This document shows, in pieces, positions 9,500-60,265 of a stretch of 64,000 bases of DNA (its first letter is position 1; the number at the start of each line of letters is the position of its first letter). A program made the position numbers and the translations under genes. This DNA is from Geosiphon pyriformis uo1. Its lineage: Eukaryota > Fungi > Glomeromycota. The stretch is from positions 130,087 to 194,086 of the forward strand of contig JAAOMT010000187.1 in assembly GCA_016748015.1 (NCBI GenBank), read 5' to 3'. The notes beneath the pieces were generated by a model. It had not been told where the DNA came from. It searched no databases and worked only from the letters and a program-made list of their open reading frames with translations.

Positions 9500-12400
9500 A
9501 AATTCGAAAAATAGAAAGTGAATTAAAAAACTTATTAAATAAAATTAAGGATTTGTAAATTAATAAATCTTTGATTTTTTTTAAATAGATATTTAATTTT
9601 TTATATTTGGTAATAAATTTTATTCAACAAAATAAATTTAATAAATTAATGTCAAAAAACATGTAAATGGTAATATTAAGATTGTTATATTATCAACTTA
9701 TTTAATTTAATTATTAAAACTGTAATATATATTACATAATAAAGTTATAACAAATTTTGGCTTAACAAAAAATTACAAAGTTTATAGTAGTTTAAATTAA
9801 AATAAAGTGTTTTTACTATTGCTTTAGAAAAATTTTTATGATCTATTTATGTGTATAAAAATTAAGAACCAAACTTAATTATATAAGTACTATATAAATT
9901 TAAAATTCATAACTAAGATAAGTTAAATAAAAGCAACAGTTAATTACTTTTTATTTTTTACTACTAGCACTTTTATAGATAATATTATTTGAATAAGCAA
10001 TTTTTAAATAACTTTACAATATATTTTAAATATAATTAATAAGTTTTTTCAAATTAATATTTTTATTAACATTAAAAAAACTGTAATTATTTTTATTAAT
10101 TATTAAGTAAAGTTTTTTAGTTTGTACATTTGCAGAATGTCTATTTTAATTGTTAAAAAAGAAAAAATATACAAATATTTAGATATATTTAGTTAATAAA
10201 TAAAATATTTAATCTTAATTTAAAAAATATATATATTAATATTAAGTTTTTTATAAATATAGTATTAAAAAAAACTATATTTAATAAACAGTTTTTATAT
10301 TTGATTTTAGTTGTTTTATAACTGATTATTATTTATTATATTTAATTTTATTTTATAGTTAAACAAATATGTATTAAATAAAACTTAATTATTAGAAAAA
10401 ATTTAAAATTTAAGACTAATTTGCCAAAAATATTTTTATTAATATTATATATTATTTTTTGTTATATGATTTTAAATCTTTAAACAAATTTAATTAAAAA
10501 GTAAAATAGCAAATTTAATAATATTAATTAATACAACTAAGATTCTTAAATAGCTTTTTATTTATTATACTATAAATTTGTAAATTATATATTAGATTTT
10601 ATAATATTTATTGTTAATTTTGCAAATTTTTTAACTGGTATAACTAATAAGTTGTCTATAATATTTTGGTTAAAAAAAATAATTTTAATGTTAGATGTTT
10701 TAAGTACTTTAACTTATTTTAAATTGATTTAATTTCTAAAAAAATTTAATATTGTTTCTATTAATTAGTTTTTAAACTATTATAATTTCTGTTTTACTTG
10801 AAAAAAATTTTGGTATTGGAAAAAATTAGATCTTAAAATTTTAATTTTTGTTTGTTTTAATATCTTTATTGTGTTTATTTTTAATAATAATTTTATTAAT
10901 ATTACAAATAATTTCTAAATTATTTAATTTTTTATAATTTAATGCTTAAAATGATTAATTTTTTAATTTAAAAATTTTTAAAAATTTTGGTATTAAAATT
11001 AATTGTATAATAGACAAAAATTCAATATTAATAGTAAATAATACTTAATATTTAACTTTTTTAAAATAACTAATTTATTTTGGTGTTTTTTATTTTTTTA
11101 TTAAACAATTTTAGTTTTTTTAGTTATATTTTATATTCTTTTTTGGTGTTTTTTATTAAGCAATTTTTGATGTTACAATCTCAATATTTTTTCTTAATTA
11201 ATTAGTAAACACAAAACAAACAAAATAAATAAATAAATAAATAAAAATTGAAAATTGGTATTTTGTTAATAACTATAATTAAAAATTATTGTTTTATTAT
11301 TGTTTATAATATTGAATTAATACTATTAATATTAATAAGATAAATATGAATTTATAAAATTATATTTAAATAATATAATTTAATAAATTTATTTAAATAA
11401 TTATAAACTATAAAGTTACTTAATAAAATAAAAACTAAACTTGTTTTTAATTTAGCTTATCTGTTTTTTTCGTTTTTAATATTTTTGTTGTATATATATA
11501 AATTTTTACAATTTTTTTGAGTTATTATTAAAATTTCTAATATTTTTGTTAATATTTTTGGAATTTTTAATATTATATGCTTTAATAATTTATACTTTGT
11601 TATTGGTTATTTATTTATGTTTTTTTGTTTTTTTTGTTTTATTTCACAAGTAATAATATATATATTTTTTAATATTAAGCTCTAATATATTTTTTTTTGG
11701 ATAAATTTAAGTACTTTTTTTTATTATAATATTAAAAATTTCAGTTTTTGAAATTTTAAACTGTAAATTAATTATTTTTCTAGTTGGTTTGCTGTTAATA
11801 TTTTTATAGCTAAATATAATAATATTTTATTATATTTATAAAAAATTACATATAATTAATATACTGTTTTTAAGTAGATTATTAAATTGGTTTTTAATAA
11901 TATTCTATTTGTTATACTATTTTTTGTTAAAGATTTTCTTAAATCTATTAATGTACTAAATAGTGATTGGGTTTTACTTAATAAATGCATTAATAAAAAA
12001 AAGATCTGTTAGTATATAATATCTGAATATTTAACTATTATATTAAGTAATAATAATAATAATATATTATCAAAATTTGTTTTTTTTTAATTTTTTTAGT
12101 CTTTTTTTATTAGTTTTTTAAATTAAATAACTGTTAGTAGATTTTTTATAATTTTTTTTACTTTTTTATAATTTTTTTTATATAGTTATTTACTTGTATT
12201 TGTAATTTTTTGTATAAAACTATTTATGTTGTTTTTTTTAAGTATTTTTATAACAAATTTTTTGATTATTAACAGTAATTTTTATGTTTAACTTTTTATT
12301 TTTTAGTACTTAAACAAATATTAAATAATTAAGTAAATATTATTTGTAATTTTTATTTTTGGTGGTTATTTTGTTATATTTGAGTAATATTTATATATAT

Positions 12401-12600: not shown

Positions 12601-12601
12601 T

Positions 12602-20921: not shown

Positions 20922-21899
20922 TGTTACCAGACGAAATTAAAGATATTATTTAGCATGAAATTATCTTATAATTCCTATCATTAATTAGCATATATTATCA
21001 TTTCAAATGATTACTTATTACATTAGCAAAAATATCCGAAATTATCATTTAATTAATAACCCAAATTGTACACAACACAAATGTAACCTAATTGTGATGA
21101 TCAATTATGCAATACCCCGAACTATGTAATATTCAGAAGTTCGCCGAAATTTGTAGAAATTCGCTGAAATAATTGATAGTTCACCGAAATATCTAATAGT
21201 TTGCCAAAATAACTTGTAGTTTGCCGAAATGTATCTTTAATTCAGCAAAATTGTAGAAAATAGCAAAGTTCAAGTTCATAGAATAGTGTTACAACAAGTT
21301 GTATAAAAGAAGAGCTTCTCTTTTTGAGAAAATATATCTTACTTTAGATTTATCACTTAGAACCATTTCTACACACAAAAGAAATAAATATCAAATAATT
21401 CGAAAAACCAAATTCTTTAAATTATTACACTTGGAGAATCCCCAAAACCCAACTAACATTTTGAAATTGATTAGCTACCAATTTCAATAAACTGTTAGTG
21501 ACTCCAGGCCTGGATAGAAAACGTTTCTCTTGACAAAAATTCTATTTCTTTTACATTTCTTTTATTTTCTTTTATTTTCTTAATCATAATCATTAGGGTA
21601 ACCTACAGACGAGATTCCTGTAGAAGAGTTGACTTTCACAGCAAAGTAACTACACATTTTTAGTAAGCTTCCAGACGAGCAATTCCTGGGAAAGAGTTGA
21701 CGTTTACTACAACGTAACTACATAAAGTAACTGGCAAGGAATTGGCCATTCCACTTATAAGCCCAGCAGTTCAAATTATAGGAGATAATTTGAAAATAAA
21801 TTCAGTTATTGGACATTCAACTACATCCAGAAAACGTGAATTTACAACAGACAGACATTAACAACATTTAAGAAAAGAGACCAAAAACCTCCAATAACA
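20922..21899 (+). repeat. A1 5' LTR (978 bp)
   Basis: TGTTACCAG...CCAATAACA; TATA-like TATAAAA at 21302; AATAAA at 21486; direct repeat of 30171-31106. Confidence 0.96.
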
Positions 21900-21901
21900 T
21901 T

Positions 21902-21917
21902 TGGTGCTCTCCCACGG
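21902..21917 (+). promoter_or_regulatory. Primer binding site TGGTGCTCTCCCACGG (tRNA not assigned)
   Basis: Starts 2 nt after the LTR with TGG; complementary to a tRNA-like 3' end CCGUG-GGAGAGC-A-CCA. Confidence 0.85.
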
Positions 21918-21941
21918 AAATAACACAGCAACAAATTCAAA

Positions 21942-24900
21942 GTGGCGACTGCCTTAGACATCACAACTTTAGAGTACTATCAATCGATTTACACACACTG
22001 CAAACAACGATTTGAAATACACAACGGAATTATAGCTTTCAAGAAAACACTTTTTCAATACATCGAAAATCGAATCAATGACTACCTCTTTGGGAACTAT
22101 AACATTACAACAGTTAAAAAAGATCTTCTTAAGAACATACTACACTATTCCAACACTGAATCAGAAAACATTAGTGCTGAAGCTTGCACTACTTATTTTG
22201 AGGAACTCGATTATAATATCATTCAATTCTGTGAAGAAAAATATCTTGTAAATGCACAATTTGCCTTTGAACTCGAATTTGAACCTGAAACCAGTAGCAA
22301 CAAAAGACAAAAAGATAACTGACCTGTTCATACAACACCCAATACTCCCAAAATATCATTCAAACATTTACAAACACCTGAACAAGGAACCAGCTCAAAA
22401 CTTTCACTTACTATCACACCTTTTCCAGCTTCATTTGCACAAGCCCAAACACCTAATTCACCCTTGAATCGATTTGCAAGACCAGAAGATTTTACATCAC
22501 TCAGAAGTCCCACCAGACAACAAGAACTCCTTCAAACTAGTTTCAATCTCCTTGATTTTCTAGCTAAAAACCAAAGTGAACACTCTGAGACAGCAGCAAA
22601 CGAAGAAAACAACTCTGAAATAACTAAAGAAGAATCAATAAACAGTGACAACAAAGAAAACGAAATGACAACATACATTGCAAAAATCCCTAAATTCAAT
22701 GGAGAAGATATTGAGACCAGTTCCCAAGAATGGCTCGACCAAGTTACCAAAGCAGAAGATGCAAATGGATGGAATGCTGCCAGAATGTTGAGAACAATTC
22801 CTTACTTTCTTAAAAAAACAGCAGAAGAATGGTTTGAAAACCTTGCCGCCCCATTCAATGATTGGAACGCTTTTAAAACAGCCTTCCTTGAACAGTTCAC
22901 TGACAATAATACCTCCATCACTCTTCACAATTGTTTTCGAAATATCAAACAAGAACCCTCTGAATCCATTATGACTTATATTGGAAAATTCAACAAACTT
23001 CTCAGACGGATTTGCCAACTTGAGACAAATGATTATTATTCCGATGCTCAAATCTTGGATCAATTTATTGCTGGTCTAAAAGATAAACTAATTAAAAAAA
23101 TTTGCCCACACACACCAGAAGATTTAAACTCTGCCATACAGCATGCGAAAAGATACGAAATGGCCATGGAAGAGACCAATTGTACAAAACTTGTAAATTT
23201 GGCAATTGAAGAAACCAGCTCAGCAACTGAGGAAAAAATTGACCAACTCACAAAGAAGATCAAAAACTATTTTACCAACCAACAACAACAACAACCCCAA
23301 AGATATCAACCACCCCAAAGACAAAATCAAAATAACTTTGCACCACTTTCCAATAACCAGCCCCAAAATTGCCATTATTGTGGAATCTCTGGCCACTGAA
23401 AAAGAGATTGTAGAAAGCTACAGTAAGACCAACAAAACAGGAGTAATCAACGTTACTCTTCACCACAGCAATCTTATTATCAACCATCACCACCAGCTTA
23501 CTATCCACCAAGACCCCAATACCAAAATAACTATTATCAGCCTGCCCCACAATCAATCCAACAGCAATACCAACAACCACCCACACAACATTATCAAGTA
23601 CCTACTCGAAGACTGATTACACAAAATCAATTCACACCACAAAACCAATACCAAGTAAACAACAATAGAATCAGTTTAAACAACCAATTGGTTCCCCGAA
23701 ATTCCACTCAACCAAGACCCAACCACTACCACACTCAACCCAGTTATTTAACAATGCCAGAAGAACAGAATTTTCACTATACTGCACTCTCGGAAGATAG
23801 AGCTGCAGCACAACAACAACAAAACCCTTCTCATAAACACACCACTATTCCACCAGCCCAAATTGCTGAAAATGCCAATCTCTCTGATATCTTTCCTTTT
23901 GAATTTGAAGCAAATAAATTACCATTCTTGCTTAGCAATACAGTGGCTAATGAGCAAAAAGCCATCACTGCAATATACACAGAAGCTGAAGTAGAAGGAA
24001 AGCCAATTCGCTTGATCCTAGACAGTGGATCCGCTGGAAGCATTATCATCTACCAGTTAATGCAACAGTTGAAAAGAAATGTCGACCGACCAGCTCAAAC
24101 AGTAATCGTCACTGCTAATGGCATAAAAAAGACACCAGTAGAAGAAATTGACAATTTTCCGTTCACTCTTGATGGAATCACCATTCTAGTCAAAGTTCTT
24201 GTAATGGATGCACCCCAGTACCAAGCTCTTGTCAGAAATAATTGGCTTCAAAAAGCCAATGCTAATCTGAATTGGGAAACACAAAAGTTAACAATCTCCT
24301 ACCAAGGACAACACGTCTGGGTACCTGCCATTTGTGGTACATTCAACAAATGCTTTGAAAAAGCCCCGGCTTTTGAATTTGAACCAGAAGAAGAAAAACC
24401 AATAATTGAAACATTCATGGCTCTTGGATCAACGTCCAACTGGGCTGATGAAACAAAACAAGAACATTTTACTCCACACACTAAATCCGAAACCTCTGGA
24501 TGGAATATACCTTACTCAAAACCTAAACTAAAGAAACGACGCCCCTATATTCCCCTTAAATATAGAGACTGCCACAAAAAACTATCGTCAATGAGAGCCT
24601 GCATTTCACCTGAAGAAGAATATGAGAATCATACTTGTTATTACTGTAAGGCTTGCCACAGAGAGCGATAGGGCCATCTAATAAAAAGGAGTGGAAAATG
24701 GGACAACACTCTTTGTTTGACTTGTGGAGATATGCTACCAGAAGAATGCAATTGGATTGATGTAGCAATGAGAGAAGGTGTTTGCAATCAGACCTGCCAA
24801 TATGCTTTATCAATTTCAAAAAAAGTAAAAAGAGGAACACCCTTTAATGCAGCATACAACAGTGCTCTCAACAAACTTTATTACTACCCTTATGATGCTG

Positions 24901-27554
24901 AGATGATTTTTGACTTAGCAATGACATTAATTAATGGAGCTACCAAAGAAGATGTTCGTCAAATGAAGGAAGCGGAATACATTGAATACACTATAGAATT
25001 AGCTGGATTCGATTATGAAAATGAAGTAGAAGTCTACCACCAAATTGCAAGTCACACCTATCCAACCCAAGAAGCTCAAATTCAACGATTAGAGCAAATG
25101 AACATTAGGCTATGTGAAAAATGCATTATGTCTTGCGATGAACAATAGTGTCTTGAATGCTATGCTCTTAGTATCCCCTTGCCCAGCGAAAATGATGAGA
25201 ATGAAATTGAATTTGGAGAACCTGAAGAAACGGAAGAAATTGAAACAACACCCATCTACCTTATCAAAAATCAGCCTGCCTTACAACTTAAATACTTCAA
25301 CAACAATGAACAAGGAATAAAACCCGAAAAAGCACACAAAATTGATGCTGGATATGACCTAAGATATCCAGGCAAGGATACTCTTGTTCTCAAACCCAAA
25401 TCTCTCACAAAAATCAACCTCAAAATTGCACTTGAAATCCTGCTAGGAGCAATGGTTTAAATCGCCTCCCAGTCCTCTCTGGCAAGCAAAGAAATCAATG
25501 TCAGAGGAGGAATAATCGATGCTGGATATACTGAAAACATAACAGTGATGCTTTAAAATGAAACTGACAAACCATTCAAGATTGAACATGCTGAAAAAAT
25601 TGCCCAAGCTATTTATCTACCCCTAATCAACATTTTGGGTTTACAACTAGTTAATCAAAGAGAGCAATTAAGAAAGAGCAATAGAGGAACCCAAGGTTTT
25701 GGTTCAACTGGATGATTCACAGTTCCAGTTAATATAGCTCTTAATACACAGAACAAATCCCACCAGATTCTCAGACTTTCACAACCGATTACCATCTCAC
25801 TCTTTGGAGAACATCTGGAAATCTACACCTGCCCAAAGCCAACAACCACACAACAAATTTTTGAGTCTAATGAGCAAGTCTGCTTGGAACATAATATTTC
25901 GATCCCAAACATTTATATTCCAGAAGAAACAAAGAAAGTCCGAGTTACTTTTTACAACCCCAATAATTACCCCATAATTTTATTAAATAATTTAGAAATT
26001 GGAGTTATTCACAGTAATATATTTCAACAAGAATTACCCCAAACAGTTCCCGATTTCTCTGAAATTATTGGACATTCAATACCAAAAATCAACCCAAACC
26101 CCAGCTCCGAAAACTACCATGTTGTCATGGAAAAACTATCTCAAATTAACATGGGACAACTTGAACCACAACAACAGACTCAGCTCAAAGAGCTAATTAC
26201 AGAATTTGCTGATATCTTTGCCGAAAACAACAATGACTTAGGAAGAATTGATTTGGTTCAACACCAAATCTATACAAGAAATGCCAAACCCAGGCGACAA
26301 CAAGCCTACTGAGTTGCTCCAGAAAGTCACCAATTTATCCGAGAAGAAGTACAACGGATGCTTAACAATAGGCTTATTCAACCATCAATAAGCCCATGGG
26401 CCTCACCCGTGGTCCTAGTTAAAAAGAAAAATGGAAAGATACGATTTTGTGTTGATTACTGACAACTCAACAGTGTCACCATTGGGGATGCCTACTCTCT
26501 TCCCTGAATTGATGACATGTTGGATGCCCTTGGAAAGTCCAAATACTTTTTGACATTAGATTTAGAGAGTGAATACTGGCAAGTTTCTATGGACCCCAAA
26601 GACCACCCCAAAACAGCATTTACCACTCAAGGAGGAAATTACGAGTTTAATGTAATGCCTTTTAGATTATGCAATGCACCAGCAACATTCCAAAGACTCA
26701 TGGATGTTGTTTACAAAGGCCTCCTTTGGAAATCAGTAGTAGTTTATTTTGATGACACTCATGTTTATTTACCATCTTTCGAGCTACATTTAATTCACTT
26801 ACAAGAAGTTTTTCAATGATTATGGAAAGCAGAATTGAAACTGAACATTGAAAAATGCTACTTTGGAAAAACAAGTTTAGCTTTTCTTGGTCACATTGTG
26901 AGCAAAGATGGAATTAAACCAGACCCTGGAAAAATCAGTACTGTCAAGAACTTCAAGACTCCATGAAATACCACAGAATTAAGAAGATTTATTGGATTAG
27001 CATCCTATTACCGAAAATTCATCAAAGGATTCTCAGAAATTGCAAAACCCCTCAACCAGCTCACTACTAAAAATGTCGAATACAAATAAACAGAAGAACA
27101 CCAAAATGCCTTTGAGATACTTAAAGAAAAACTCATAACAGCTCCAATCCTCACCTATCCAGATTTCAACAACCAATTCTGATTAGCAACTGACGCCTCT
27201 TATACTGCCTTTGGTGCCATCCTATCACAGTTAGATGACAATGGAAATGAGCAAGTAATTGCTTATGCTAGTAGAACATTAAAGCCAGCTGAAAAGAACT
27301 ACCCCACAACAGAATTAGAAACCGCAGCAGTAATCTGTTCCCTACATCACTTTAATCTTTACCTCAGACCCAAAGAATTTGATATTATCACTGATAATAT
27401 TGGACTTAAATGACTTCAGAACAAAAACACCCAGCTGAATGCAAAACAAACCCGATGGACAGGATTTTTAGTTAATTACCAATACATTGTACACCACAAA
27501 CCAGGAAAACTTCATACCAATGTTGATTGTCTCTCAAGAATGAGGCAAGATTAG
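21942..27554 (+). pseudogene. A1 polyprotein frame: N-terminal extension, Gag (ATG 22665, CCHC near 23370-23411), protease, Cys-rich insert, dUTPase, RT, RNase H
   Basis: All fragments share one frame. CHYCGISGH*KRDC; LILDSGSAGSII; SPWASPVVLVKKKNGKIRFCVDY; MPFRLCNAPATFQRLM; YFDD; LATDAS; NYPTTELE; HKPGKLHTNVDCLSR. Confidence 0.95.
25290..25712 (+). pseudogene. dut: dUTPase domain within A1 pol
   Basis: All five trimeric dUTPase motifs: AGYDL, IASQSSLA, GIIDAGYT, EKIAQ, RGTQGFGSTG. Confidence 0.95.
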
Positions 27555-27603
27555 AAAACAAAACCAATACCCATTTGAATTAACAGCATCAAAACAACAA
27601 ACA

Positions 27604-28989
27604 ATGAACCCTGAAAACTACAACAATCTCAAACAATATCTGGAGACATTAACAATCCCAACAGATTGGTCCCCAGACAAAAAACATCAGTTACAACAAC
27701 AAGCCAAACAATATTTTCTACACAACAACATTATCTATTATCGAAATTTCAAAAACCCAACCAAACCACTCAGATTAATACAAGAACAGAAAAAGGAGAC
27801 CATTTTATACAACATGCACTCAGATCCTTCATCAGCATACTTCGGAAAAGATAGCACCACCCAAAGAACACTAGAATATTACTTTTGGCCTCGAATGAGA
27901 AAAGACATTCACAAATATGTCAAATCTTGTGATAGTTGTCAAAGAAGAGGAGAAACTTGCCCTACAGAACCTTTAAATCCAATCAAAATTGGACAGCCTT
28001 TTGACAGAGTTGGTATCAATTTAGTCGGACCACTATCTATCACCACTTAAGGAAACCGTTATATTGCAGTAGCTGTAGACTATTTTACTAAATGGCCTAA
28101 AGCCAGAGCCATTCAATGAGCAGATGCGAAATCAGTAGCAAAATTCATCTACAAAGACATCATTTGTAGACACGGATGTCCAATTGAACTTTTATCTGAT
28201 CAAGGAACACACTTTGTGAACAACCTGATACAAGAAATTTGCGAACAATTTAATGTCAAAAGACCTCTGTCTTTGCCCTACCATCTACAAACAAATGGAC
28301 TTGTGGAATGTTTTAACAGAACATTGTGTGAGTCATTAGCCAAAGTCTCAACCAATTTTGAGCAAGAATGGGATCTCTTTATTCCATCAGTGTTACTAGC
28401 ATATAGGACATTAAAACAAGATACCACGAAACACACACTATTTGATTTAACTTATGGAAGGACGGCAACATTACCAATTAGTTTCACAGTGGAAACATAC
28501 CCAGCATAACCGATCGATGAAAACAATTTCTAAGAAACGCTTCAGCAAAGAGTCTACACTCTGCTTAGCACATTGGAAAGAAAATGACAAATAGCAGCCA
28601 CTCATATTGAACACTCCCAAGCTCAACAAAAAGAACGGCATGATAACAAATTGTTTTCAGCCACCAATGAATTTAAAATTGGAAACAAAGTTCTCTTACA
28701 CAGAACTAAAGCTGAAAAACAATGGAATAAAAAATTTGAAAATAAATGGGATGGACCATTTTTTATCCATGAAGTCCTAGACAACGGATCATACAAGCTA
28801 AGACTTGATAACAAAATCCTAGCAAAAGTTGCACATGGAGATTGTTTGAAACACTATCATTTCAGAAACAATCCTGAACCATTAATTCCACAAATTGGTA
28901 CACATTCCCCTTTGGTCAGTCCCGAAGACATTTCCCGAAACTTAGAACCAATAGTTGTCATTGAACAACCTTCCAACCTGAACACTTAA
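27604..28989 (+). pseudogene. A1 integrase ORF (461 codons), in a different frame from RT-RH
   Basis: HHCC-like MHSD...CDSC; GINLVGP; LLSDQGTHF; GLVECFN; KWDGPF (GPY/F). No chromodomain seen. Confidence 0.93.
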
Positions 28990-29168
28990 TTTAATTTTAC
29001 TAGTTATTTTCTTATAATTTAGAAACAATCTCACAAAAACAAAACAAAAATAACATAAAAACCCATACACCAAAAATAATTTTCTTTTATTTCAAATCGC
29101 TTATAATGACTATTCTCAAAACATTCAACAATTATCCCAAAAACTAATGTTAGCTTTAAAAACAATAC

Positions 29169-29188
29169 NNNNNNNNNNNNNNNNNNNN
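29169..29188. other. Assembly gap (20 N) with unmerged overlap: 28812-29168 repeated at 29189-29546
   Basis: The two flanking copies are identical apart from a 1-nt indel near the contig end. Confidence 0.92.
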
Positions 29189-29482
29189 CAAAATCCTAGC
29201 AAAAGTTGCACATGGAGATTGTTTGAAACACTATCATTTCAGAAACAATCCTGAACCATTAATTCCACAAATTGGTACACATTCCCCTTTGGTCAGTCCC
29301 GAAGACATTTCCCGAAACTTAGAACCAATAGTTGTCATTGAACAACCTTCCAACCTGAACACTTAATTTAATTTTACTAGTTATTTTCTTATAATTTAGA
29401 AACAATCTCACAAAAACAAAACAAAAATAACATAAAAACCCATACACCAAAAATAATTTTCTTTTATTTCAAATCGCTTATA

Positions 29483-30202
29483 ATGACTATTCCTCAAAAC
29501 ATTCAACAATTATCCCAAAAACTAATGTTAGCTTTAAAAACAATACCTGAATTATCCATTACTGTTACTAAAAACCACATTAATTATACCCAAACAGAAG
29601 TAGTTACAAATTTAGCCCCAAATTCATGAAAATATCACCCATATAAGAAAAACACAAGAAGTTATACTGGAATTCACCTGCCAGAACTTTTAAAGCTTGC
29701 TTTAAGAGAAAACCTAATGCTCACTCCAATTAGTATTCCACCAAATGCTACAAGTCAACAAAGACTTTAATTGTGTCTCAATGAGGAAAACACTGAATAT
29801 CCTCCAATCTATAGATATTTCCACATTAGAAAAACACTCTACGAACGGAAACTGGAACTTACAACAGCAAACCTCACAAAAGAAACTATTCAAAAACAAC
29901 TCCACAATGAATTCAAGACAACAGCTGGACCAACAAACAGTCGCTACAAGCTCAGAGCTGCTCTTAGACTTTATGACCTATTCCACACCTGTGAAAACAT
30001 ACTGCAAAACCCAATTTTTCAACCTTTGAAAATTCAATATATTGGAAAGCTTACAGAACTGAAATTTCAACAATTTTCAGACCAAATTTCTTCAATAATT
30101 TTGGATTATTATCTGGAAATAACAGACAGTATTTGGACTTTGATGAAGCTCAGTCTTAAAGAGGAGGTTATGTTATCAGACGAAATTAGAGATATTATTT
30201 AG
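29483..30202 (+). pseudogene. A1 ORF3: 239-codon accessory ORF of unknown function, reads through the PPT into the 3' LTR
   Basis: MTIPQNIQQL...YRYFHI...ALRLYDLF...IGKLTE...DEIRDII*; two internal stops; same length in A2; homologue in family B. Confidence 0.85.
30158..30167 (+). promoter_or_regulatory. Polypurine tract
   Basis: AAAGAGGAGG 3 nt before the 3' LTR (GAGGAGGAGG in A2). Confidence 0.85.
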
Positions 30203-31106
30203 CATAAAATTATCTTATAATTCCTATCATTAATTAGCATATATTATCATTTCAAATGATTACTTATTACATTAGCAAAAATGTCCGAAATTATCATTTA
30301 ATTATTAATCCAAATTGTATACAACACAAATGTAACCTAATTGCGATGATCAATCATGCAATACCCCAAACTATGTAACATTCAGAAGTTTGCCAAAATT
30401 TGTAGAAATTCGCTGAAATAACTTATAGTTCACCGAAATTTATCTTTAGTTCAGCAAAATTGTAGGAAATAGCAAAGTTCAAGTTTATAGAATAGTGTTA
30501 CAACAAGTTGTATAAAAAAAGAGCTTCTCTTTTCAAGAAAATGTATCTTATTCTAGATTTATCACTTAGAACTATTTCTATACACAAAAGAAATAAAAAT
30601 CAAATAATTTGAAAAACCAAATTCTTTAATTAGTACACTTGGAAAATTCCCAAAACCCAACTAACGTTTTGAAATTGATTAGCTACCAATTTCAATAAAC
30701 TGTTGGTAACTCTAGGCCTGGATAGAAAACGTTTCTCTTGACAAAAATTCTATTTCTTTTATATTTCTTTTATTTTCTTTTATTTTCCTATCATAATTAT
30801 TAGAGTAATCTATAGACGAGATTTCTGTAGAAGAGTTGACTTTCACAGCAAAATAACTACACATTTTTAGTGAGCTTCCAGATGAGCAATTTCTGGGAAA
30901 GAGTTGACGTTTACTACAACGTAACTACATAAAGTTACTGGCAAGGAATTGGCCATTCCACTTATAAGCCCAGCAGTTCAAATTATAGGAGATAATTTAA
31001 AGATAAATTCAGTTATTGGAGGTTCAACTACATCCAGAAAACGCAAATTTACAACAGACAGGCATCAACAACATTTAAGAAAAGAGACCAAAAACCTCCA
31101 GTAACA
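30171..31106 (+). repeat. A1 3' LTR (936 bp)
   Basis: TGTTATCAG...CCAGTAACA; lacks two of the 20-bp U3 units present in the 5' LTR. Confidence 0.96.
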
Positions 31107-31451: not shown

Positions 31452-33407
31452 ATGGAACCAGTGGGCTTTGCTGCTGGTGGTTCTGGGTCCATTTCGGCTG
31501 GGTTGAGGACCCAGTCTGGTGTCAAAAATAAGCGCTTGGTTGGTCCTCATTCTCATGGTGCATCCTATAAGAAGCTGAAGAAATCTGTGGTGGTTGACGG
31601 GTTGGTGGAGTCGTCTGCTGGTGTTTTGAATGTTATGGATGAAAGTGGTGATGGATTTAACATTGGGCGATCGTGGGCTAGCAAAGTCAACAGCAAAGTG
31701 GACAGCGTGAATAGTGTCTCGGACTTGGATAATGTGGAAAACGTTGTTACTAAGGAAACTTGCTATGCAGAATCAGATGTTTCGGGTTTGAACGACAACA
31801 TGAATGATGCCATACCAAGGAAGACGCATACTCGCACCTATGTTCTGAACAGTAAGCCACCACCTCTTTTTTTCAATGTTCCAAGTGATGGTGAGGATAC
31901 TTTGTCTCTCCTGAGTCCCAAATTTTATGGATCCAATTGCCTTCCTCTAATCGGGTCATGTGCACCAGAGAAACGGAATTTTAATTTGTCAAAATTGTTT
32001 GCATTAGATATTGAGCTATCTGCCATTCCTGGCAAAACTAATAATGATAAAATGATCAGTTTGAAAAAAAATTTTTATCACATTGATGGGTTTGGGAGAG
32101 CCTCAACTCCCTCAAAATTCCCAGGAATCATCAGATCCTCATTTACATCTGAAATTAGTTTAAATAAGGCTAAGGAATTGGCAATCAGTGAGAAAATTTT
32201 AGTCAATGATAATCTGAGAAAATCAAGTGTCCGTTCAGATTGGGAAGTAATAGTCAAGGAGATCTCAGTGGATCTTTCCAGATTGGCGGTGGAGTCAGTT
32301 TTTTCCAAATTTGGCAAGGTTGTTTCAATCAAAATGCAGCTAATTGGTCTCTGGCAAAAGGCTCTGGTCGAATTTGAGTCATCTGAAGTAGCTAGTCTGG
32401 TTGCTTCCAAATAGTCAGTTCTCATGGGAAAGGATTTGGTGTGTGTGGCTTTGGCAATCAATGATAAACAAACGTGGATATCGAGAAATCAGCATCAGGC
32501 TTTGCTTTATACTCTTCCAGTTGGCACCAATGTCCATAATCTCTCCTGTTTGTTGGAGTCATATGGTGGAAAGACTTGTTACATTGGCTGTAATCCTAAT
32601 TCATATGTTTGTGATAGATGTGCTGTAATTTGTTTTGGTGATGAGGCATCTAAGTTGGCTGCTATTGATACTGTTCCAGTTTTCAAAGGTGTAAGTTTGC
32701 ATTGGGCTGGTCTTTTTTTGGCCAGTTGCACTCATTGTAAACAATTTGGTCATGTTATGGTCAACTGCTCCTTGGGTGAGTATTCTGGTGTTTGAGGGAA
32801 GAGGGTGGTTTCTGAGCAAGATTGGATTCGTCTAGCTGGGATATATAAGAAAAAGTCAGCTTCTATTGCTCATCCGGTCTCATTTGGTGGTAAAACATAG
32901 GCCCAAGTTGCTGGTGGCTCTCCTTTTCATGTGACTTTTTCTGATTTGATTGGTGCTGGTTTGCATTTTGGTTTGGTTTATTCTTCAATGGTGACTGACT
33001 CTCCTACCATTTCTCATTTGAATGACTGGCTGGCAATTTTGGAGCGCTCTTTGGAGCTTTTGACTGACCACGTTTCTGGCATTTTGGTTCGACTGGAATC
33101 CATTGATTTGGTTCCTGTAATGACCCCTTCTCTGAGCCTTCTTTCTGTTGTTTCTGAAACTTTGACTTCTAATGTGAATTCTGATATGATTATGAATACT
33201 GCTTTGGTCTCATCTGGTACTCCTCTATCTGTTATTTATAATGCTGTTGTTGAGTTCAGCTCTAGTAGTTCCAAAGTCCTCACTGCCAAAGTGGGTGGTT
33301 TGGAAACAAAATTGATTGCTTTGGAGGCCTTGGTTAGTTCAGTTTTGGATAAGTTAAATATTCTGTGCTCTGGTTCAGATTTGTCAGTTCCCCTGTCTTC
33401 TCAATGA
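31452..33407 (+). pseudogene. LINE copy 3 ORF1
   Basis: In-frame fragments; RRM-like segments; CTHCKQFGHVMVNC. Confidence 0.88.
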
Positions 33408-36400
33408 CTTACTTAATTTGGAAAATTGCCACATGTAATGTCAAAGGTATGAACAATTCTGCAAAACAGGAAGATATCATTCATTGGCACAAGAATATAA
33501 ACAATTTGATTTTTATTGTTACCGAGACCAAGCTAAAGGGTAAGGTCTGTCCATGGATTGCAACTAGGTTTGATGATGTTCGAGTCTTTACCTTAGATCA
33601 AGATTCTGGTAATCTGGGTTCGGGTGTTGCTATTGTTGTAAACAATTCTCTGGCTCGCCATGTGTATAAGGTTTCTGAGGTGCCTGGTCGGCTTCTCTCG
33701 ATTAAGTTGCTTTTTAAGAACAAACTTTTGGTATCAATTTTGGGGCTTTATGCTGGTGCTTCTCTGGCAGCCCATTTTTCTCAAGCTAGTGAAGTCAATT
33801 TTCTGATAGCTAGGGCTGTGAATGAGTTTTCTTTTGTTGTTTTGGGTGGTGATTTTAACGAAGATGGCTTTCACAAGTGTGCTAGTTTTAAGAAGTGTTT
33901 GGATTTGGGAATGGTTAATTCTCTGGCAGGGAATTCATTGGCAAAAAATCCTACCTGGAAAAATTCAAGGGGTGTTGTAAGAATTATTGATTATGTGTTC
34001 ATTTCATCAAATTTGGTCAATGTGATAGTGAGCCGAGACATTTTGGATGTTAGTGAGTATTTTGATACTGATCATCAAGCGGTTTGTGTGTCTGTGGGTT
34101 TGGGTGGGCTTTTGAATATGCATTTGAACTCTTTTTGTAGGAGGCAAATAGAGATCGATGAAAGTTTAACATTAGGGGTGCTGATGAAAGTAAATGGGAC
34201 AATTTCAGGTGTGTCACTTCGGCCAATGCAGTAATGTTCTCAGATAAGTTTGCCACCTCTGTAAGATTCTCAAATTTGGATGTAATGTGGGATGTCATTC
34301 GCAAGGTCATGGTGCTTTCAGCTGATGGTACTTTCAAAAAAAAATGGTTCAAGAACTTTAATAAAGTTTTCTCCAAGGAATCCTCAAAGTTTCACAAATT
34401 GGAGCTTTTGGTTTCTAAGATCATCAAGGCATCGTGTAAGAGAGATATTGTTGGTTTTGCTTCTTTCATGGATTGTTGAGCTTCTTTGGACAGTGTTAAG
34501 GCTTTAATCGTTCGGAATCTGATGGATTCTGGTATGGACTCTGGTCATGTTCTTTCTGCTCTCTTGAGCGCTCGGAAATCATATCATGCATCTAAGCTTG
34601 TTGAGTCTCAGAATGCCAAGGAGGCTAACATTAGATCAGCCATAGATAAGAGAATAGAAAGCTTTGAGGTCAATAAAGATCATATGATAAGGAGTGTGCT
34701 GGAGTGTCCATTTCGTAAGGTGGTGCTTGACCACTTGGTTGTTGATAGTAAGCTGGTTTTGGAGCCTGATCAGATTATGAGCAAGGTGGACATGATCATG
34801 GAGGATTGGACTAGGAAGCATCAGGTGGTTAATGATATGTCAAGCAAATAGTGTTGCCAATATTAGCCTTTGGAGTATGTTTTTGATGAGGCTTTTTCAG
34901 AGGTGATGTGTTCGATTGGTTTTGACAAGTTGTTTGGGGTGGTTTCCATCCTTCCTGATGGCAAAGCTGTTGGTCTGTCGGATATCTCAAATGAGCTTTG
35001 GAAACATTGTGATAGGTCTGTCTTGGAGATGTTATTGGTGCTTTTGAACGCTTACTTGGCTGGTGAATCAGTGCCTGGTCTATGGAGAGAGGCCTGGATT
35101 TCAATGATTCCCAAGTCTTATGAATGGGAGGATGTTCTGACAAATACACATCCTATTGTTTTGATCGAGACAGCTCGCAAGATTCTTTCCAAGGTTTTTT
35201 CTGATAGGATTTCTGCTGCATGCAGTACTTTCAATGTTTTTTATGAGGACAATTTTTTGGTTTTGAAGGGTATGACTACTCAGTCTCCCATTTTTGTGAT
35301 TGGTTCAGTAATTGAGGATGCTCTGGAAAAGAACCATAAGCTCTGGCTGGTGTTGCAGGATATGAAAAAGACTTATGATTCAGTTGGCTAAGAGCATCTT
35401 GAAAAAAGCCTGGTCAGGATTAAGATGTGCAGCAAGTTTATTCGGTTTTTTGGTAGTATACACAGGAGTCGCACCAATCGAGTAATAATGAATTTCAGTT
35501 TGACTGGTGGTTATTGTGTGTATGATGGCTTAGATCAAGGAGAAGTTTTTTTCCCCCTTCTGTAGTGCATTTTCTATGATTTTTTGTTGTGTGAAGTCAA
35601 ATGTCAGGAGAGTGTGTGTGAGTATAGGCTGAATTCGTACTTTATCTCTAAAAATGGATGTGCTGAGACTCGGGCTGGACTTTTTTCATTTTTTGCCACT
35701 GGTGCTTTTGTCGATGTTACAATTTGGGTTGGTAACAGTCAAGCTGCCACTCAGCACATTCTCGATGTCACCAGTGAATTTTTTTGGGTCAATGATATCT
35801 CTGTTAACAATAACAAAACAGTGGCCATTCCTATCAATAGCAGAGTCAGCAGTCTCTTCCTTTTTATTAGTGGCTTACCCATTTCTGTTGCCAAGAAGGG
35901 GGAACCTCATTGGTATCTGGGTATTTTTTTTTCAACTGAGGGTCTTTCGAAGCCGAGCTTGGCTAAGGCACATTCAGACATTCGCTTTTTCATTAATTTG
36001 GTTCTGAGAAAAGCTATTTCAGATAAACAATTCCTATACTTGATGTTGGCGGTTCTCCAGCCCATAATCAGTTATTGAACACAATTTAGTTTTATACTGG
36101 TTGGTGTTTGTGCCAAGTGGGATGTTCTGGTCCGCAAGAGCTTGAAGCTTAAGTCTGGCCTTCCACTTGATTTTTCCAGTGATACACTGCACCACCCTTC
36201 ATTTTATGGTTTGAAATCTTTCTCGCAGGTACAGTCTAAGTGTAAAGTGGCCTCTCTTGTCAGTTTTGTGAACTCTGATGGGATCTTGGGTCGCTTATTT
36301 TCTCACAGGTCTTACGACTTGCAAGTTCAGTGTTGGCATCCTGTTCATCCGTTAAATTTCCCTGTTTGAGTTAATATCAGTGCTTCCAACAACTTTTTGG

Positions 36401-38091: not shown

Positions 38092-38635
38092 TGTTGTTCT
38101 GATTGGCCCGAGTGGCTGGTCACATGTAGACAATGCATGATTCACGCCTAGTATAGATCATTTCCTTGATGTGTAGCTCTAGGTAGTGTTTGGACCTCAC
38201 TCGTAAAATGAAATAAAAAAAAAATATTATTATTAAGCATGTAATTGTTTACATAAAATCAAATTTTTTTATTTTTTTCTGAAATAATATTATCAGTTTT
38301 TATTTTGTGTTAAATAATATTAGTTTTTCAAATTTATTTTTATTTATAAATATATTAATCTATTAATTAAATAATACTTAAAATTGTATTTTTTTTTTCT
38401 AATTATTCTAATTAAAATAGATAATATTTTTTTTGGCCTAAATTTGTAATGTAAAATTCATATATTTACACAATAAAATAAAATTTAAAATATTTGTTAA
38501 TAAGTAATTTTTAATTTTAGACTTAAATATTTAATAATATTATTAATTCAAATTTTTATATAGTTTTTTATTTTATTATAAATTAAAATTCTAATATTTT
38601 TGTGGTTTTTAGTTAATATATTTATTTTAATAATA

Positions 38636-46482: not shown

Positions 46483-48058
46483 ACAATAAACATATTTTAA
46501 AGCTTTTACAACAACTTTTTAAAACTATTTAACAAACAATAATATTATTAAAAATAGCTATTAACAAAAAAAATAATAATACAAAATTACAAGCAAAAAT
46601 AAGATAAACAAAAATTTAATTAAAACTGAATATTTACAATCTTATATAGTATTAAACAAATAAAACTTTAATATATAAACAATAAAAAAAGTAAAAAAAG
46701 TCTTAAATAATTTAATTATAAAACCAAATACTAAAAAATAGATATTTAAAACCACTATAACATAAAAAAAAAACTTTTATTAACACATTAATTTTTAAAA
46801 ATTAATAAAAAACTAGATTTATAAACACTATATATAAATAAAACCAATTGAATATTTAATAAAAAAAATTTGTAACAAGTAAAACAATTTATTAAAAGAA
46901 ACAATTTAATATTATACTATAAAATAATTTACTAATTATACTTAATATTTAAATACTGTTTAATAATTATAATTAACAATATTAAACAAATAACTAATTT
47001 TCAGTTGAAAAACTACAAAAAGCAATATTTAACACAATATTAAATATTATACTAAAAAAATAACTTTTAAAAATATATATAAATTTGCAAAAGCTTAATT
47101 TTAAAAAAAATAATGTTATTTAAGTAAAAAAACTGATCAAAAATTTATTAAAAAATGATAATTAACATATAATAACACAAAACAATACAAAATAACTAAC
47201 AATAATATAGAATAATTAGTTATAATATAAAAAAATAAAGCAATAATTAACATAATAAACAATAATTAGTAATAATAAACAATTAAAAGTAATCTTATAA
47301 AATTAAAAAAAATATAAAAACAAATAATTATAATAAACAAAAAAAGACAGAATTAAATTTATTTTAATTTTTAATAATATCTTTAAATTTATTTATTTTT
47401 TTAAATTTTTTCATATCTTTTATTATCTTAATAAAAATATTATTAATTTTTTTAAAATTTTCATAATTTTGAAAACTTGTACTTAATATTTAATTTCTTA
47501 TTAAAAACATTATTTATCTTTATTTTAAGTTAAATACAATTAGCATAAATACTTTTAAAACTTTAATAATTTGGATCAATTACTTTTAATTATAGTAATT
47601 AACAGAATACTAATTTTTTTATTTTTTATTTTTTAAAAAATGGCAACATTAAAAATTGACTGTTTTAGAATTAAACTTTGTAATAATTTGGTAAAAAAAA
47701 TAAATATTAAATATTAAATTTATTTTGTTAACTTACCAAAAAAATAAAAAAACACTATCAAACTTTAATAATTATAATTAACTAATATAGAATAAAATTA
47801 TAACAACATAACTATAATGTTATAATTTAAAAATTTAACAAAAAATTATAAAATAATATAAATTATTCAATTATAATATAATACAGTATTAATTTTAAAA
47901 AAATAATAATTAATATAATAATAAGCACTATTTTATAATAGCAACAAATACTAATTTATAATAATAGTAAATACCAATTAGTAATAATAATAAACACCAG
48001 ATTAAGATATTAAAAAAAGTATTACAATGTGTTTTCTTATAAAACTACAAATATATAT
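46483..48058. other. AT-rich relic, possibly the 3' end of an old LTR element
   Basis: A-rich skew; a PPT/LTR-junction-like AAAGCTTAATTTTAAAAAAATAATGTTA near 47090-47120. Otherwise unreadable. Confidence 0.4.
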
Positions 48059-56779: not shown

Positions 56780-58598
56780 AGCTAAGAATTCTTGGTGTCC
56801 ATTCTGTCTTTTCTGCCTCTAATGCTACTGCTATATATACATATCTAAGATTCCTCAATTTCTTAATTCCTTGTAACAGGAATCCTGGAATTCCTGGAAT
56901 CCTGTGATTCTTGATGAGAAAATTCTGAAATTCTTGGAATCCTGCAATTCCTTTAAGAGGAATCTTGGAATTCTACATTTACTACATCTATATTTGATTG
57001 GCTAATATCTACTGACTAATAATACTATATTTTCTATATTCTATAAGTAACATTATTTCTTCTTTTTTTAATATTGAGCTCTGTCGAAATCTAATTCCTT
57101 TAATTCTCCTTCTTGAATTATTTCTTGAACTTCTTTTTCGAGTATTACTTGTGTTATTTTAGTTTGTAGTTCTTCAAATTGAGCATTGGTCATTTTTCCC
57201 AATTGATTACTCATAACTGTATTTATTGCTGGGTTGAGTAAAATTTCTGGTCAGTCTTGAAATCCCATATATATCTGATAAATGGCTTGAGCTTGTGTAG
57301 TTAGATTGTTCTTTCCCACAAATTGTTCTAGTTGTCTCAGTATTGTTGTGTCGAATAAACATTTTGTTTTGTCAGTGTACAAATTCTGGATATTTATGTG
57401 TTGTTCCAAGTGGAAATAACAATAGTTTTTTGGAAATTGTTGTATCCACCAAGTCCAAGTTTCTCTAGTAAGTTCTTAGTGTAATCCGACTATTTGTTGT
57501 TCTTTTATGGCCAATTTTATCTTGGTCATGATCTTGTTAACAACATTTTCAAGTCTTTTCTGTGCTTTGTTTTGTGGTATCTTTGCCATATTTTTGTAAC
57601 GAATAGTTTGTTGATTGATTGTAATTTCTATCTCCTGGTGTTGGATTAATTGAAAAATTTGTTGGGCTAATAAATGGATATTGTCTGTAATTTCCATTTT
57701 TCTGATCTCTTTTGTCATGTCGACCATGTTCTTATATATTCTTTTGTCAATCAATTGGATATGTTGTTGTCAATGATAATGATTGGTTCCAGATCTTGTG
57801 GAATCTTATCTGGTTGGATTAGTATTCTCTGTACTCCTAATTGTGGAATATTATTGGTGGATGATAATGCTGTATGATGGTATGGTTTCAGTCAATCTTC
57901 ATGTGCTGCTTTGGTCAAGATTTTGTTATTCAATCTTAATTTGTAAGCTTTATTTCCTAGAATTTTTTTTATGTGAAATGGTTCATCCCATTTAGGGTCA
58001 AATTTTCCACTTTATTGTTTTTCTGCTTTGGTACAATGTAATAGTACTTTGTCTTCAATCTTGAATTCAACTGGTTTATCTGGTAGTTGCTTATCATGTC
58101 TTTCTTTTTGTTTCTCTTGTAACTTTTGTATGTTATCAGCTGCTCTTTGTCATTTATTTTTTAATGTTTCCATTAAGTCATATGTTCTTTTTAATAATGT
58201 GTTTTTGAAATTCTTTTTTGTTATTGGTTTGGTTGGGTATGTGGAGATTTCTATTTCTACTGGTAGTATTGCTGTTCTATTATATACTAATTCAAATGGT
58301 ATTGCTTGTGTAGTATCTTGCTTCATTGTCCAATAAGCAAATAGTACTGATAGTATCAACAAATCCCAATCATTCTGGTTTTCTTGACTGAGCTTAGCTA
58401 TTGCTTTACACAATGTTTTATTGAATCTTTTGACTAATCTATTGGTTTGTAGATGGTATGGTGATGATAGTGGTCTCTTAATTCCGAATCTTTGGCTCAA
58501 TTTTGTTAATGTTCTGTTCACAAAATGAGTTCCTTGGTTTGATAATAATTTCTTTGGACATCTGTGTTGACAAATTAAATCTTGATGAACAAATTTAG
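56780..58598 (-). mobile_element. B2: autonomous-type family B Gypsy fragment (integrase C-half, ORF3, PPT, truncated 3' LTR from 57052), interrupted by A2
   Basis: LLSNQGTHF, SPYHLQTNRLVKRFN, KWDEPF; LTR start TGTTACTTATAG identical to 48069. Confidence 0.88.
57068..57697 (-). pseudogene. Family B ORF3, homologue of family A ORF3
   Basis: MEITDNIHLLAQQ...EIEITINQQTIRY...YCYFHL...AQAIYQIY...ILLNP...LGKMTNAQFEE; single frame with three internal stops. Confidence 0.8.
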
Positions 58599-59545: not shown

Positions 59546-60265
59546 CTAAACAATATCTCTAATTTTGTCTGGTAACATAACCTCCTCCTCAAGACTGAGC
59601 TCCGTCGAAGTCCAAGTACTGTCTGTAATTTCCAGATAGTAATCCAAAATTATTGAAAAAATTTGGTCTGAAAATTGTTGAAATTTCAGTTTTGTGAACT
59701 TTCCAATATATTGAATCTTCAAAGATTGTAAAATTAGGTTTTGTAGAACGTTTTCACAGGTGTAAAATAGGTTATAAAGTCTAAGAGCAGCTCTTAATTT
59801 ATAATGACTGTTTGTAGGTCCAGCTGTTGTCTTGAATTCATTGTGGAGTTGTTTCTGAAGAGCTTCTTTTGTGAGGTTTGCTGCTGTAAGCTCTCATTTT
59901 CGTTTGTGAAGTGTTTTTTCAATGTAGAAATATCTATATATTGGAGTATAGTCATAGTTTTCTTCGTTAAAACACAGTTGAAGTTTTTGTTGAATAGTAG
60001 CATTTGGTGGAATACTAATAGGAGTGAGCATTAAGTTTTCTCTTAAAGCAAGCTTTAAAAGTTCTGGCAGATGAATTCCAGAATAACTTCTTGTGTTCTT
60101 TTTATATGGGTGATATTTTTGTGAATTTGGGGCTGAATTTGTAACTACTTCTGTTTGGGTATAATTAATGTGGTTTTCAGTAACAGTAATGGATAATTCG
60201 GGTATTGTTTTTAAAGCTAACATTAGTTTTTGGGATAATTGTTGAATGTTTTAAGGAATAGTCAT
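59546..60265 (-). pseudogene. A2 ORF3 (239 codons)
   Basis: Same start, length and LTR-overlapping stop as in A1. Confidence 0.85.

What the first reader, a model, noticed from the sequence alone, without database searches (positions are those of the whole stretch)
29483..30202. Non-Env accessory ORF3 conserved between two divergent Gypsy families
Seen: 239 codons in both A1 and A2, with no obvious signal peptide or transmembrane segment, reading through the PPT and ending 32 nt into the LTR. Family B has a same-position ORF (57068-57697) with little DNA similarity but aligned motifs: MTIPQNIQQLSQ/MEITDNIHLLAQ, ELSITV..HINY/EIEITI..TIRY, YRYFHI/Y(C)YFHL, ALRLYDLF/AQAIYQIY, ILQNP/ILLNP, IGKLTELKFQQ/LGKMTNAQFEE. 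Known: LTR-overlapping 3' ORFs are regulatory in complex retroviruses (HIV nef, MMTV sag). Inference: a selected helical protein, perhaps a transactivator, RNA binder or silencing suppressor.
Basis: partly seen in the sequence, partly recalled or inferred. Interest (0 to 1): 0.8.

Follow-up and report, generated by a model that had tools for sequence, protein, structure and literature searches.

The report
Conserved extra gene in fungal retrotransposons
Several distantly related jumping-gene families in a soil fungus carry the same extra gene of no known protein family just after their integrase; the copy here is broken, but the gene has been kept under selection and likely encodes a soluble nuclear protein that would help switch its own element on.

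Summary
Intact 239-aa copies exist among annotated Geosiphon pyriformis proteins. The gene sits in sense after integrase in a dUTPase-bearing Ty3/Gypsy element and shows purifying selection (synonymous share 47% vs 28.5% neutral, P=0.0016). A/B homology holds, through two further Geosiphon lineages and two metagenomic relatives; one of these lies at the same position in another Gypsy element. No transmembrane segment and no Pfam, PHROG or NCBIfam family at its cut-off. A confident model of a relative shows a small alpha-beta-beta module, a disordered basic linker with a PY-NLS-like motif, and a helical core. The nef/sag analogy fails: the LTR overlap is 32 nt, is absent in B, and the acidic tail is largely a read-out of the polypurine tract. 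Best guess (0.38): a nuclear, element-specific activator or anti-silencing factor binding its own LTR repeats; binding, location and expression are untested. New protein family in a known category (extra ORFs of LTR retrotransposons).

The parts
29483..30202 (+). ORF3 of element A1: 239 codons, broken by in-frame stops at codons 49 and 96
   Evidence: 91% identical to intact natural 239-aa copies
20922..21899 (+). 5' LTR of A1 (TG...CA, 978 nt), with a 20-bp-period repeat at 21166-21230
21900..21918 (+). primer-binding-site-like stretch beginning TGG just after the 5' LTR; primer tRNA not identified
   Evidence: assignment from position and general knowledge
21924..28989 (+). decayed gag-pol: gag, zinc knuckle, aspartic protease, unassigned Cys-rich insert, dUTPase, RT, RNase H, integrase with SH3-like end
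   Evidence: Pfam; RT/RNase H by motif and tblastn
29169..29188 (.). assembly gap flanked by a 358-nt duplication (28812-29168 vs 29189-29546)
29367..29482 (+). 116-nt spacer between the integrase stop and ORF3; candidate branch point and AG acceptor at 29398-29399, kept in A2 (untested)
   Evidence: spacer 5% different between A1 and A2 against 16% for the LTR
30146..30170 (+). conserved pre-PPT DNA motif and polypurine tract; encodes the acidic end of ORF3 in family A
   Evidence: same motif in A1, A2, B and L001, other frame in B
30171..31106 (+). 3' LTR of A1; first 32 nt overlap ORF3
59546..60265 (-). ORF3 of element A2 (239 codons, stops at codons 5 and 124); A2 is inserted in the integrase of B
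57068..57697 (-). ORF3 of element B (209 codons, stops at codons 74 and 149); ends 15 nt before the B LTR at 57052
46750..47031 (+). heavily decayed ORF3 remnant, closest to lineage D
   Evidence: tblastn E 1.5e-11, 37%
11730..11894 (-). possible decayed ORF3 remnant (B-like) behind an integrase C-terminal remnant at 12601-12425
   Evidence: tblastn E 0.003 for ORF3, 1e-5 for integrase; weak

Best explanation
ORF3 is a conserved, selected accessory gene carried after integrase by a clade of fungal Ty3/Gypsy elements, and its product is likely a soluble nuclear protein that would bind short repeats in its own family's LTR and activate, or relieve the silencing of, that family's transcription. 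Shown: position, homology across at least six lineages, purifying selection, no membrane segment, and that the window's copies are broken. Predicted: a two-part fold (alpha-beta-beta module, disordered basic linker, helical core). Inferred: expression from a spliced or re-initiated subgenomic message; import through a basic PY-type signal in the linker; DNA binding by the helical core; action in trans on methylated copies across the many nuclei of a coenocytic hypha. The existence of the gene is near certain (0.95); a nuclear nucleic-acid-binding regulator of some kind about 0.6; the confidence given is for the DNA-binding activator specifically.
For: Selection: A1 vs A2 dN/dS 0.31 against 0.15 and 0.21 for pol parts; 23 of 49 single-change codons synonymous vs 28.5% in 5000 simulations keeping the change types, P=0.0016; 41 fixed A/A' differences are more conservative than 144 singletons (BLOSUM +0.22 vs -0.58, P=0.0025); 19 of 39 listed common variant places at third positions (P=0.03) and no indel at 15% share or more. 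Spread: both A and B profiles hit lineages C, D, P0260 and P0262 at E<=9e-4 for a 1.8-billion library; P0262 lies intact after integrase and before a PPT/LTR in metagenomic locus L001; 7 of 7 SH3-bearing gene models join an integrase end to a D-type ORF3. Divergence follows the element: integrase A-L001 59%, A-B 51%, and the ORF3 tree groups A with L001 (long branches). Model of P0262: pLDDT 79, pTM 0.66, linker 40-51 disordered. The linker is basic in 12 of 13 sequences (net +3 to +9) and holds R/H/K-X2-5-PY at the aligned place in 4 of 6 lineages, each 1.5-3.7% by chance (motif from PMC2408616 abstract). Each LTR has its own short repeats (A 20-bp period, B 8/40-bp, L001 a 9-mer three times). 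CpG o/e is 0.17-0.36 in element coding parts vs 0.68 in a long host-like ORF, as expected of methylated DNA. Weak DUF1016_N likeness in three looks.
Against: No binding, localisation or expression data. The DUF1016_N likeness is far below significance (12.9 bits vs cut-off 32.8; hhalign prob 4.5%; prob 0.1 with the single YhcG sequence) and was picked after the fact. Feature-search leads at 0.91-0.93 include RNA binders (closterovirus coat, RegA-type repressor), so DNA is not favoured over RNA by them. B and D (P0266) lack the PY motif, and only 41 of 73 located A/A' models keep it. Two intact-looking relatives are acidic overall (P0262 pI 5.4, P0260 pI 5.9). No acidic activation segment is under protein-level constraint: the acidic tail follows the PPT. 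Short U3 repeats are common in LTRs without any ORF3 (own knowledge). The model made from family A alone was poor (pLDDT 42).
Confidence: 0.38

Rival explanations
1. ORF3 is a Rev/CERV-like RNA-binding factor made from a spliced message; it would bind unspliced element RNA and export or stabilise it.
For: Basic disordered linker and PY-NLS-like motif fit shuttling RNA binders (PMC2408616 abstract); candidate splice acceptor kept in A1 and A2 and the spacer is better conserved than the LTR; feature-search leads to RNA-binding families; CERV precedent in the LTR element Cer1 (PMC10309623 abstract).
Against: No arginine-rich motif or known RNA-binding domain; B has a spacer of only a few dozen bases, so the acceptor is not shared as such; splicing unobserved.
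Confidence: 0.22
2. ORF3 is a protein-binding counter-defence or adaptor that blocks a host silencing component (RNAi, DNA methylation) or recruits a host factor, without binding nucleic acid itself.
For: Fast divergence between lineages (20-30% identity where integrase keeps 51-59%) with purifying selection inside them fits an arms race; elements are CpG-depleted and riddled with C-to-T changes; LTR elements cover 41.2% of the G. pyriformis genome (PMC11952901 passage).
Against: No match to a known silencing suppressor family; no sign of positive selection was tested; fast divergence also fits co-evolution with family-specific LTR sites.
Confidence: 0.17
3. ORF3 is a particle or integration cofactor (binds Gag or integrase, or steers integration in place of a chromodomain).
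For: Always found directly behind integrase where position could be seen; the integrase ends in an SH3-like domain and no chromodomain was found; in B the start lies close to the integrase stop.
Against: It is a separate reading frame with its own conserved start in A, B and L001, not an integrase extension; a basic nuclear-signal-like linker would not be needed.
Confidence: 0.14
4. ORF3 is an Env-like or membrane-fusion protein.
For: Env position between pol and the 3' LTR in sense.
Against: No hydrophobic segment in 13 of 13 sequences, 1-3 cysteines; no Env family at cut-off.
Confidence: 0.03
5. ORF3 is a functionless passenger or a by-product of conserved DNA signals.
For: All three window copies are broken; the C-terminal tail does follow a DNA signal.
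Against: Synonymous excess, protein-level homology across lineages with little DNA similarity, intact copy in another organism's element whose pol is broken, foldable model.
Confidence: 0.04

Closest known systems
Sense additional ORFs between pol and 3' LTR (aORF-3S, env-like) of plant and insect LTR retrotransposons (PMC7264820, abstract and section 4 read)
   Same: Position, orientation, presence in many copies of a family
   Different: Those described there are env-like, often with transmembrane segments; this one is soluble, fungal and matches no family
[quoted passage not shown]
   Same: Fungal Gypsy with an unassigned extra ORF; dUTPase between PR and RT as in PosPlaTy3-5
ORF3s of bdelloid rotifer LTR retrotransposons (PMC5408684, abstract and passages read)
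   Same: Non-Env ORF3s after pol in dUTPase-bearing elements, shared between lineages, about 210-230 aa in one case
   Different: Those are GDSL esterases, DEDDy nucleases, coiled-coil or TM proteins; this one has no catalytic motif or Pfam match and seems inherited with the element
VANC anti-silencing proteins of Arabidopsis VANDAL DNA transposons (PMC5735166, abstract read)
   Same: Proposed way of working: element-encoded factor, family-specific short tandem targets, methylated host context
   Different: DNA transposon, plant; no sequence likeness found; binding and demethylation untested here
CERV of C. elegans Cer1 (PMC10309623, abstract read); foamy-virus Tas and HIV Rev/nef, MMTV sag (recalled, no call)
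   Same: Accessory regulator encoded by an LTR element beyond gag-pol
   Different: No sequence likeness found; LTR overlap here is 32 nt and not conserved, unlike nef and sag
DUF1016_N (PF17761, YhcG N-terminal helical domain)
   Same: Similar short pattern: aromatic-x-IG, helix, G-x-N turn, R-x-Y-x-F helix (alignment)
   Different: Scores far below significance; bacterial, fused to a nuclease; lead only

Membership tests
Ty3/Gypsy LTR retrotransposon (host element) | Two LTRs, PBS, PPT, pol order PR-RT-RH-IN | tested here: met
   target-site duplication not intact
Sense additional ORF (aORF-3S) | Separate ORF between pol and 3' LTR, same sense | tested here: met
   A1, A2, B, L001, lineage D by joined gene models; lineage C and P0260 position not seen
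Sense additional ORF (aORF-3S) | Present in all or most copies of the family | tested here: inconclusive
   202 and 112 database proteins; contigs of run X1 cover all 30 of 30 bins of the ORF, but summed depth is no copy number
Sense additional ORF (aORF-3S) | Expressed from a spliced or subgenomic message | not testable with these tools
   only a candidate acceptor by eye
Env / env-like | Transmembrane segment | tested here: not met
   max KD19 0.27-1.29 in 13 of 13 sequences; usual threshold about 1.6 is recalled
Env / env-like | N-terminal signal peptide | tested here: not met
   by hydropathy only (0.87 near the A start); no dedicated predictor
Env / env-like | Sequence match to an Env family | tested here: not met
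   Pfam: none at cut-off (PRRSV_Env E 0.53 in 1 of 9 proteins)
Chromodomain | Chromodomain sequence match or beta-barrel-plus-helix fold | tested here: not met
   no Pfam match; predicted core is all-helical
nef/sag-type LTR-overlapping ORF | Substantial, conserved coding overlap with U3 | tested here: not met
   32 nt in A, none in B, motif read in two frames
DUF1016_N (PF17761) | Pfam gathering score 32.8 | tested here: not met
   12.9 bits, E 0.12 in 1 of 9 proteins
DUF1016_N (PF17761) | Remote homology or shared fold | tested here: inconclusive
   hhalign prob 4.5%, score 20.6 above 60 of 60 shuffles (best 16.5), post hoc; atlas 0.85
Helix-turn-helix DNA-binding domains (ParB/KorB type) | Structural match of the helical core | tested here: inconclusive
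   VIA Z 3.7-3.8, rmsd 2.4-5.3, 54-92 aligned, within background
VANC-like or Tas-like activator | Binds own element's DNA motifs and activates or demethylates it | not testable with these tools
   only family-specific LTR repeats seen
Rev/CERV-like export factor | Binds and exports unspliced element RNA | not testable with these tools
   none

The most novel reading that the evidence does not exclude
A whole clade of fungal Gypsy elements is 'complex' in the retroviral sense: each family encodes its own sequence-specific nuclear activator or anti-silencing protein, with a fold not yet solved, that co-evolves with repeats in its LTR and wakes methylated copies in trans; this would help explain how LTR elements came to fill about 40% of the Geosiphon genome and would be the first VANC/Tas-like system in fungal retrotransposons.
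Probability: 0.3. Interest if true: 0.8.

Novelty: new variant of a known kind. Interest (0 to 1): 0.52.

Why it matters
Fungal LTR retrotransposons are usually drawn as gag-pol only. A third gene kept across at least six diverged lineages means these elements need a function beyond the standard cycle. If it is an element-specific activator, it gives a testable mechanism for how retrotransposons escape methylation in arbuscular-mycorrhizal-type fungi, whose large genomes are shaped by them, and a new family of small sequence-specific DNA-binding proteins. Even if the mechanism differs, it assigns hundreds of 'hypothetical' Geosiphon gene models to one transposon family and supplies intact natural copies for direct tests.

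Tried and rejected
No whole genome is held for the window, so copy number, genome-wide dN/dS and element trees could not be done. Fold searches gave no clear match: Foldseek PDB and viral libraries had 0 rows at E<=0.001; VIA-align over 48,161 chains gave best Z 5.3 (rmsd 3.0, 64 aligned), none at 8 or more, and barely tested residues 1-71; this neither shows a new fold nor excludes a family. Closterovirus coat, a feature-search lead, did not appear among the listed fold rows. Sequence search of solved structures: best E 0.31. PHROGs and NCBIfam: scattered weak hits only (best E 0.0012 and 0.00046 to FtsQ in 3 of 16 members), treated as chance. No relatives in viral contigs (0 of 138 pattern matches) or prokaryote genomes (0 of 193). 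No RNA holder listed. The family-A-only model had pLDDT 42 and was not used. The atlas top hit for the core is an unnamed Mucoromycota cluster (0.93); I recall a large unnamed helical family in mycorrhizal fungi with a similar pattern, but had no sequence from a call to test it. Oligomeric state was not tested. Paper searches listed no description of this ORF family; the Geosiphon genome papers themselves were not listed and no supplements were read, so a mention there or in Repbase cannot be excluded. PMC3248453 passages show no third ORF. Look-ups of earlier findings by sequence, place and Geosiphon words were blank.

Full report
Observation. Window 29483-30202 (+) runs 239 codons from ATG to TAG, but holds in-frame stops at codons 49 and 96. 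The A2 copy (60265-59546, minus) has the same length with stops at codons 5 and 124; the B copy (57697-57068, minus) has 209 codons with stops at 74 and 149. The first stop is private: about 91% of laid depth in run X1 has another base there, and 23 of the 120 proteins listed are intact, full-coverage 239-aa copies. A 20-N gap at 29169-29188 sits between two 99.7% identical 358-nt stretches, probably an assembly overlap, so the first codons occur twice.

Setting. A1 is a full Ty3/Gypsy element: 5' LTR 20922-21899, a PBS-like stretch, gag with zinc knuckle, protease, an unassigned Cys-rich insert, dUTPase (E 9e-22), RT, RNase H, integrase with an SH3-like end, a 116-nt spacer, ORF3, PPT and 3' LTR 30171-31106. 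Its LTRs differ at 58 of 936 aligned sites. A2 is inserted in the integrase of B. All 120 listed relatives of A (of 202 found among 445 candidates) and all 112 relatives of B (among 168 candidates) are named Geosiphon pyriformis hypothetical proteins, so the host is most likely that glomeromycotan fungus, 41.2% of whose genome is LTR sequence (PMC11952901, passages).

Is A related to B? Single sequences give only 23% over 61 residues (pairwise E 0.002), and neither profile finds the other family directly at library scale (best E 0.84). Profile against profile gives probability 84.5, E 6.9e-6, 179 columns, score 43.4 against 14.7 reversed and at most 21.6 in 40 shuffles. The exhaustive search with the A profile returned 36 proteins among 1.84 billion; of the 7 most distant, 5 are two further Geosiphon lineages (C, D) and 2 are unnamed metagenomic proteins. 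Both the A and the B profile hit C, D, P0260 and P0262 at E 9e-4 or better for that library size. Homology is therefore solid, by transitivity. A search with the broad alignment added 50 hits among 7998 scored, 49 of them Geosiphon. P0262 lies in metagenomic locus L001 after RT-RNase H-integrase and before a PPT and LTR-like repeats; it is intact although its pol has two stops. All 7 SH3-bearing gene models join an integrase end to a D-type ORF3. Position was not seen for C or P0260. Integrase identity is 59% for A-L001 and 51% for A-B; the ORF3 tree (14 rows) likewise groups A with the metagenomic pair and B with C and D, with long-branch warnings. This fits inheritance with the element, on few taxa. 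Two more decayed remnants lie in the window (46750-47031, E 1.5e-11; about 11730-11894, E 0.003).

Selection. A1 vs A2 gives dN/dS 0.31 for ORF3, 0.15 for dUTPase-RT-RNase H and 0.21 for integrase; post-insertion mutation pushes all three up. Because transitions inflate dS, I simulated the same 70 changes at random places: 23 of 49 single-change codons are synonymous (47%) against a mean of 28.5%, P=0.0016. The sense frame has the highest share of the six frames, the antisense frame that shares its third positions coming close (24 of 54). Fixed differences between subfamilies A and A' (41) are more conservative than singletons (144) (P=0.0025; 42 sequences chosen). Among the 39 places listed of 44 common variants, 19 are third positions (P=0.03), and no indel reaches 15%. 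The test rests on one DNA pair plus these indirect measures.

Protein. Hydropathy never exceeds 1.29 in 13 of 13 sequences, with 1-3 cysteines: not Env. Pfam, PHROGs, NCBIfam give nothing at cut-off. A model from family A alone was poor (pLDDT 42); the broad 16-row alignment gave a good model of P0262 (pLDDT 79, pTM 0.66): helix 7-21, strands 25-29 and 34-38, disordered 40-51, then a helical core with pLDDT near 90 and a disordered tail. The linker region is basic in 12 of 13 sequences and carries R/H/K-X2-5-PY, the C-terminal motif of PY nuclear signals (PMC2408616 abstract), at the aligned place in A/A', L001, P0260 and C, each with 1.5-3.7% chance; B and D lack it, and 41 of 73 located A/A' models keep PY, most others having Leu or Ser there. 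The core shows a faint likeness to DUF1016_N (Pfam E 0.12; atlas 0.85; hhalign with 12 fetched members prob 4.5%, above 60 of 60 shuffles; nothing with YhcG alone). That is a lead picked after the fact, not a finding. The atlas search with the core listed an unnamed Mucoromycota cluster first (0.93), then closterovirus coat (0.93) and a RegA-type repressor family (0.91).

The LTR overlap. The overlap is 32 nt in A; B stops 15 nt before its LTR. The same DNA motif precedes the PPT in A1, A2, B and L001, but is read as E/K-L-S/N-L in A and L001 and as R-A-Q-Y-stop, one base shifted, in B; D proteins end in the B frame. The tail thus follows a DNA signal, and its acidity comes largely from the GAG-rich tract. 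This may also explain the 'acidic tail' in earlier AI notes on similar genes in other fungi, which I did not check.

Mechanism. Shown: a selected, soluble, separate gene in the env position of at least four lineages, with homologues in two more. Inferred: nuclear location from the basic PY linker; nucleic-acid binding from the helical core's faint likenesses. I favour a family-specific DNA-binding activator or anti-silencing factor (0.38), because each LTR has its own short repeats, the elements are CpG-depleted (0.17-0.36 vs 0.68), and the protein diverges much faster between families than integrase while staying constrained within them, as VANC proteins and their tandem targets do (PMC5735166 abstract). 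Rivals: Rev/CERV-like RNA export (0.22; PMC10309623 abstract; a candidate acceptor at 29398-29399 is kept in A1 and A2), protein-level counter-defence (0.17), particle or integration cofactor (0.14), Env (0.03), passenger (0.04). None of these was tested directly.

Known and new. Extra sense ORFs after pol are a known category in plants and insects (PMC7264820, abstract and section 4), rotifers (PMC5408684, passages) and, as unnamed 'add. ORF', fungi; dUTPase between PR and RT is known in a basidiomycete Gypsy (PMC2864245, passages). This protein family was not found described in my searches, which miss subscription papers and supplements. Earlier AI notes report similar-sounding genes in other fungal genomes, with no sequence look-alike to this one; they are not independent support. 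Verdict: a real, undescribed accessory-protein family in a known category, function open; interest 0.52.

Noticed in passing
window 24291-25235 (+): About 300 codons between protease and dUTPase of A1 with several Cys/His clusters and no Pfam match: a second unassigned, possibly zinc-binding, domain inside pol.
   Followed up: partly
window 25716-26312 (+) and 63028-63675 (-): Between dUTPase and RT a stretch matches Spuma_A9PTase at the Pfam cut-off (E 2.5e-4 and 2.7e-6), in addition to the true protease upstream.
   Followed up: no
window 29169-29188: N gap with a 358-nt near-exact duplication on both sides; likely scaffolding overlap, not a tandem duplication.
   Followed up: partly
window 46750-47031 (+); 11730-12601 (-): Further ORF3 and integrase remnants in DNA decayed to 11-25% GC: very strong loss of C and G in old repeats, with C-to-T changes not limited to CpG, reminiscent of RIP-like mutation.
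   Followed up: partly
window 14862-19688, 33255-38278, 41530-46479, 292-3276: Several 65-70% identical copies of a LINE-like family with endonuclease and RNase H domains.
   Followed up: no
window 6017-8803 (+): The only long intact ORF (928 codons), weak Sec16 match (E 5.8e-4, below cut-off); probably a host gene among the repeats.
   Followed up: no
window 39600-40108 and 38334-39641: Decayed relative (about 67%) of the family A LTR with a longer 20-bp repeat array (5.9 copies at 39596-39714).
   Followed up: no
window 54755-55141; 48980-49221: Tandem arrays of 57 bp (6.8 copies) and 71-87 bp near B-type LTR fragments.
   Followed up: no
L001:2430-2458 and window 29455-29485: The bases just before the ORF3 start are alike in A and L001 (a T-rich CTTTTATTTC stretch) although the rest of the spacer differs: a possible acceptor or initiation signal.
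   Followed up: no
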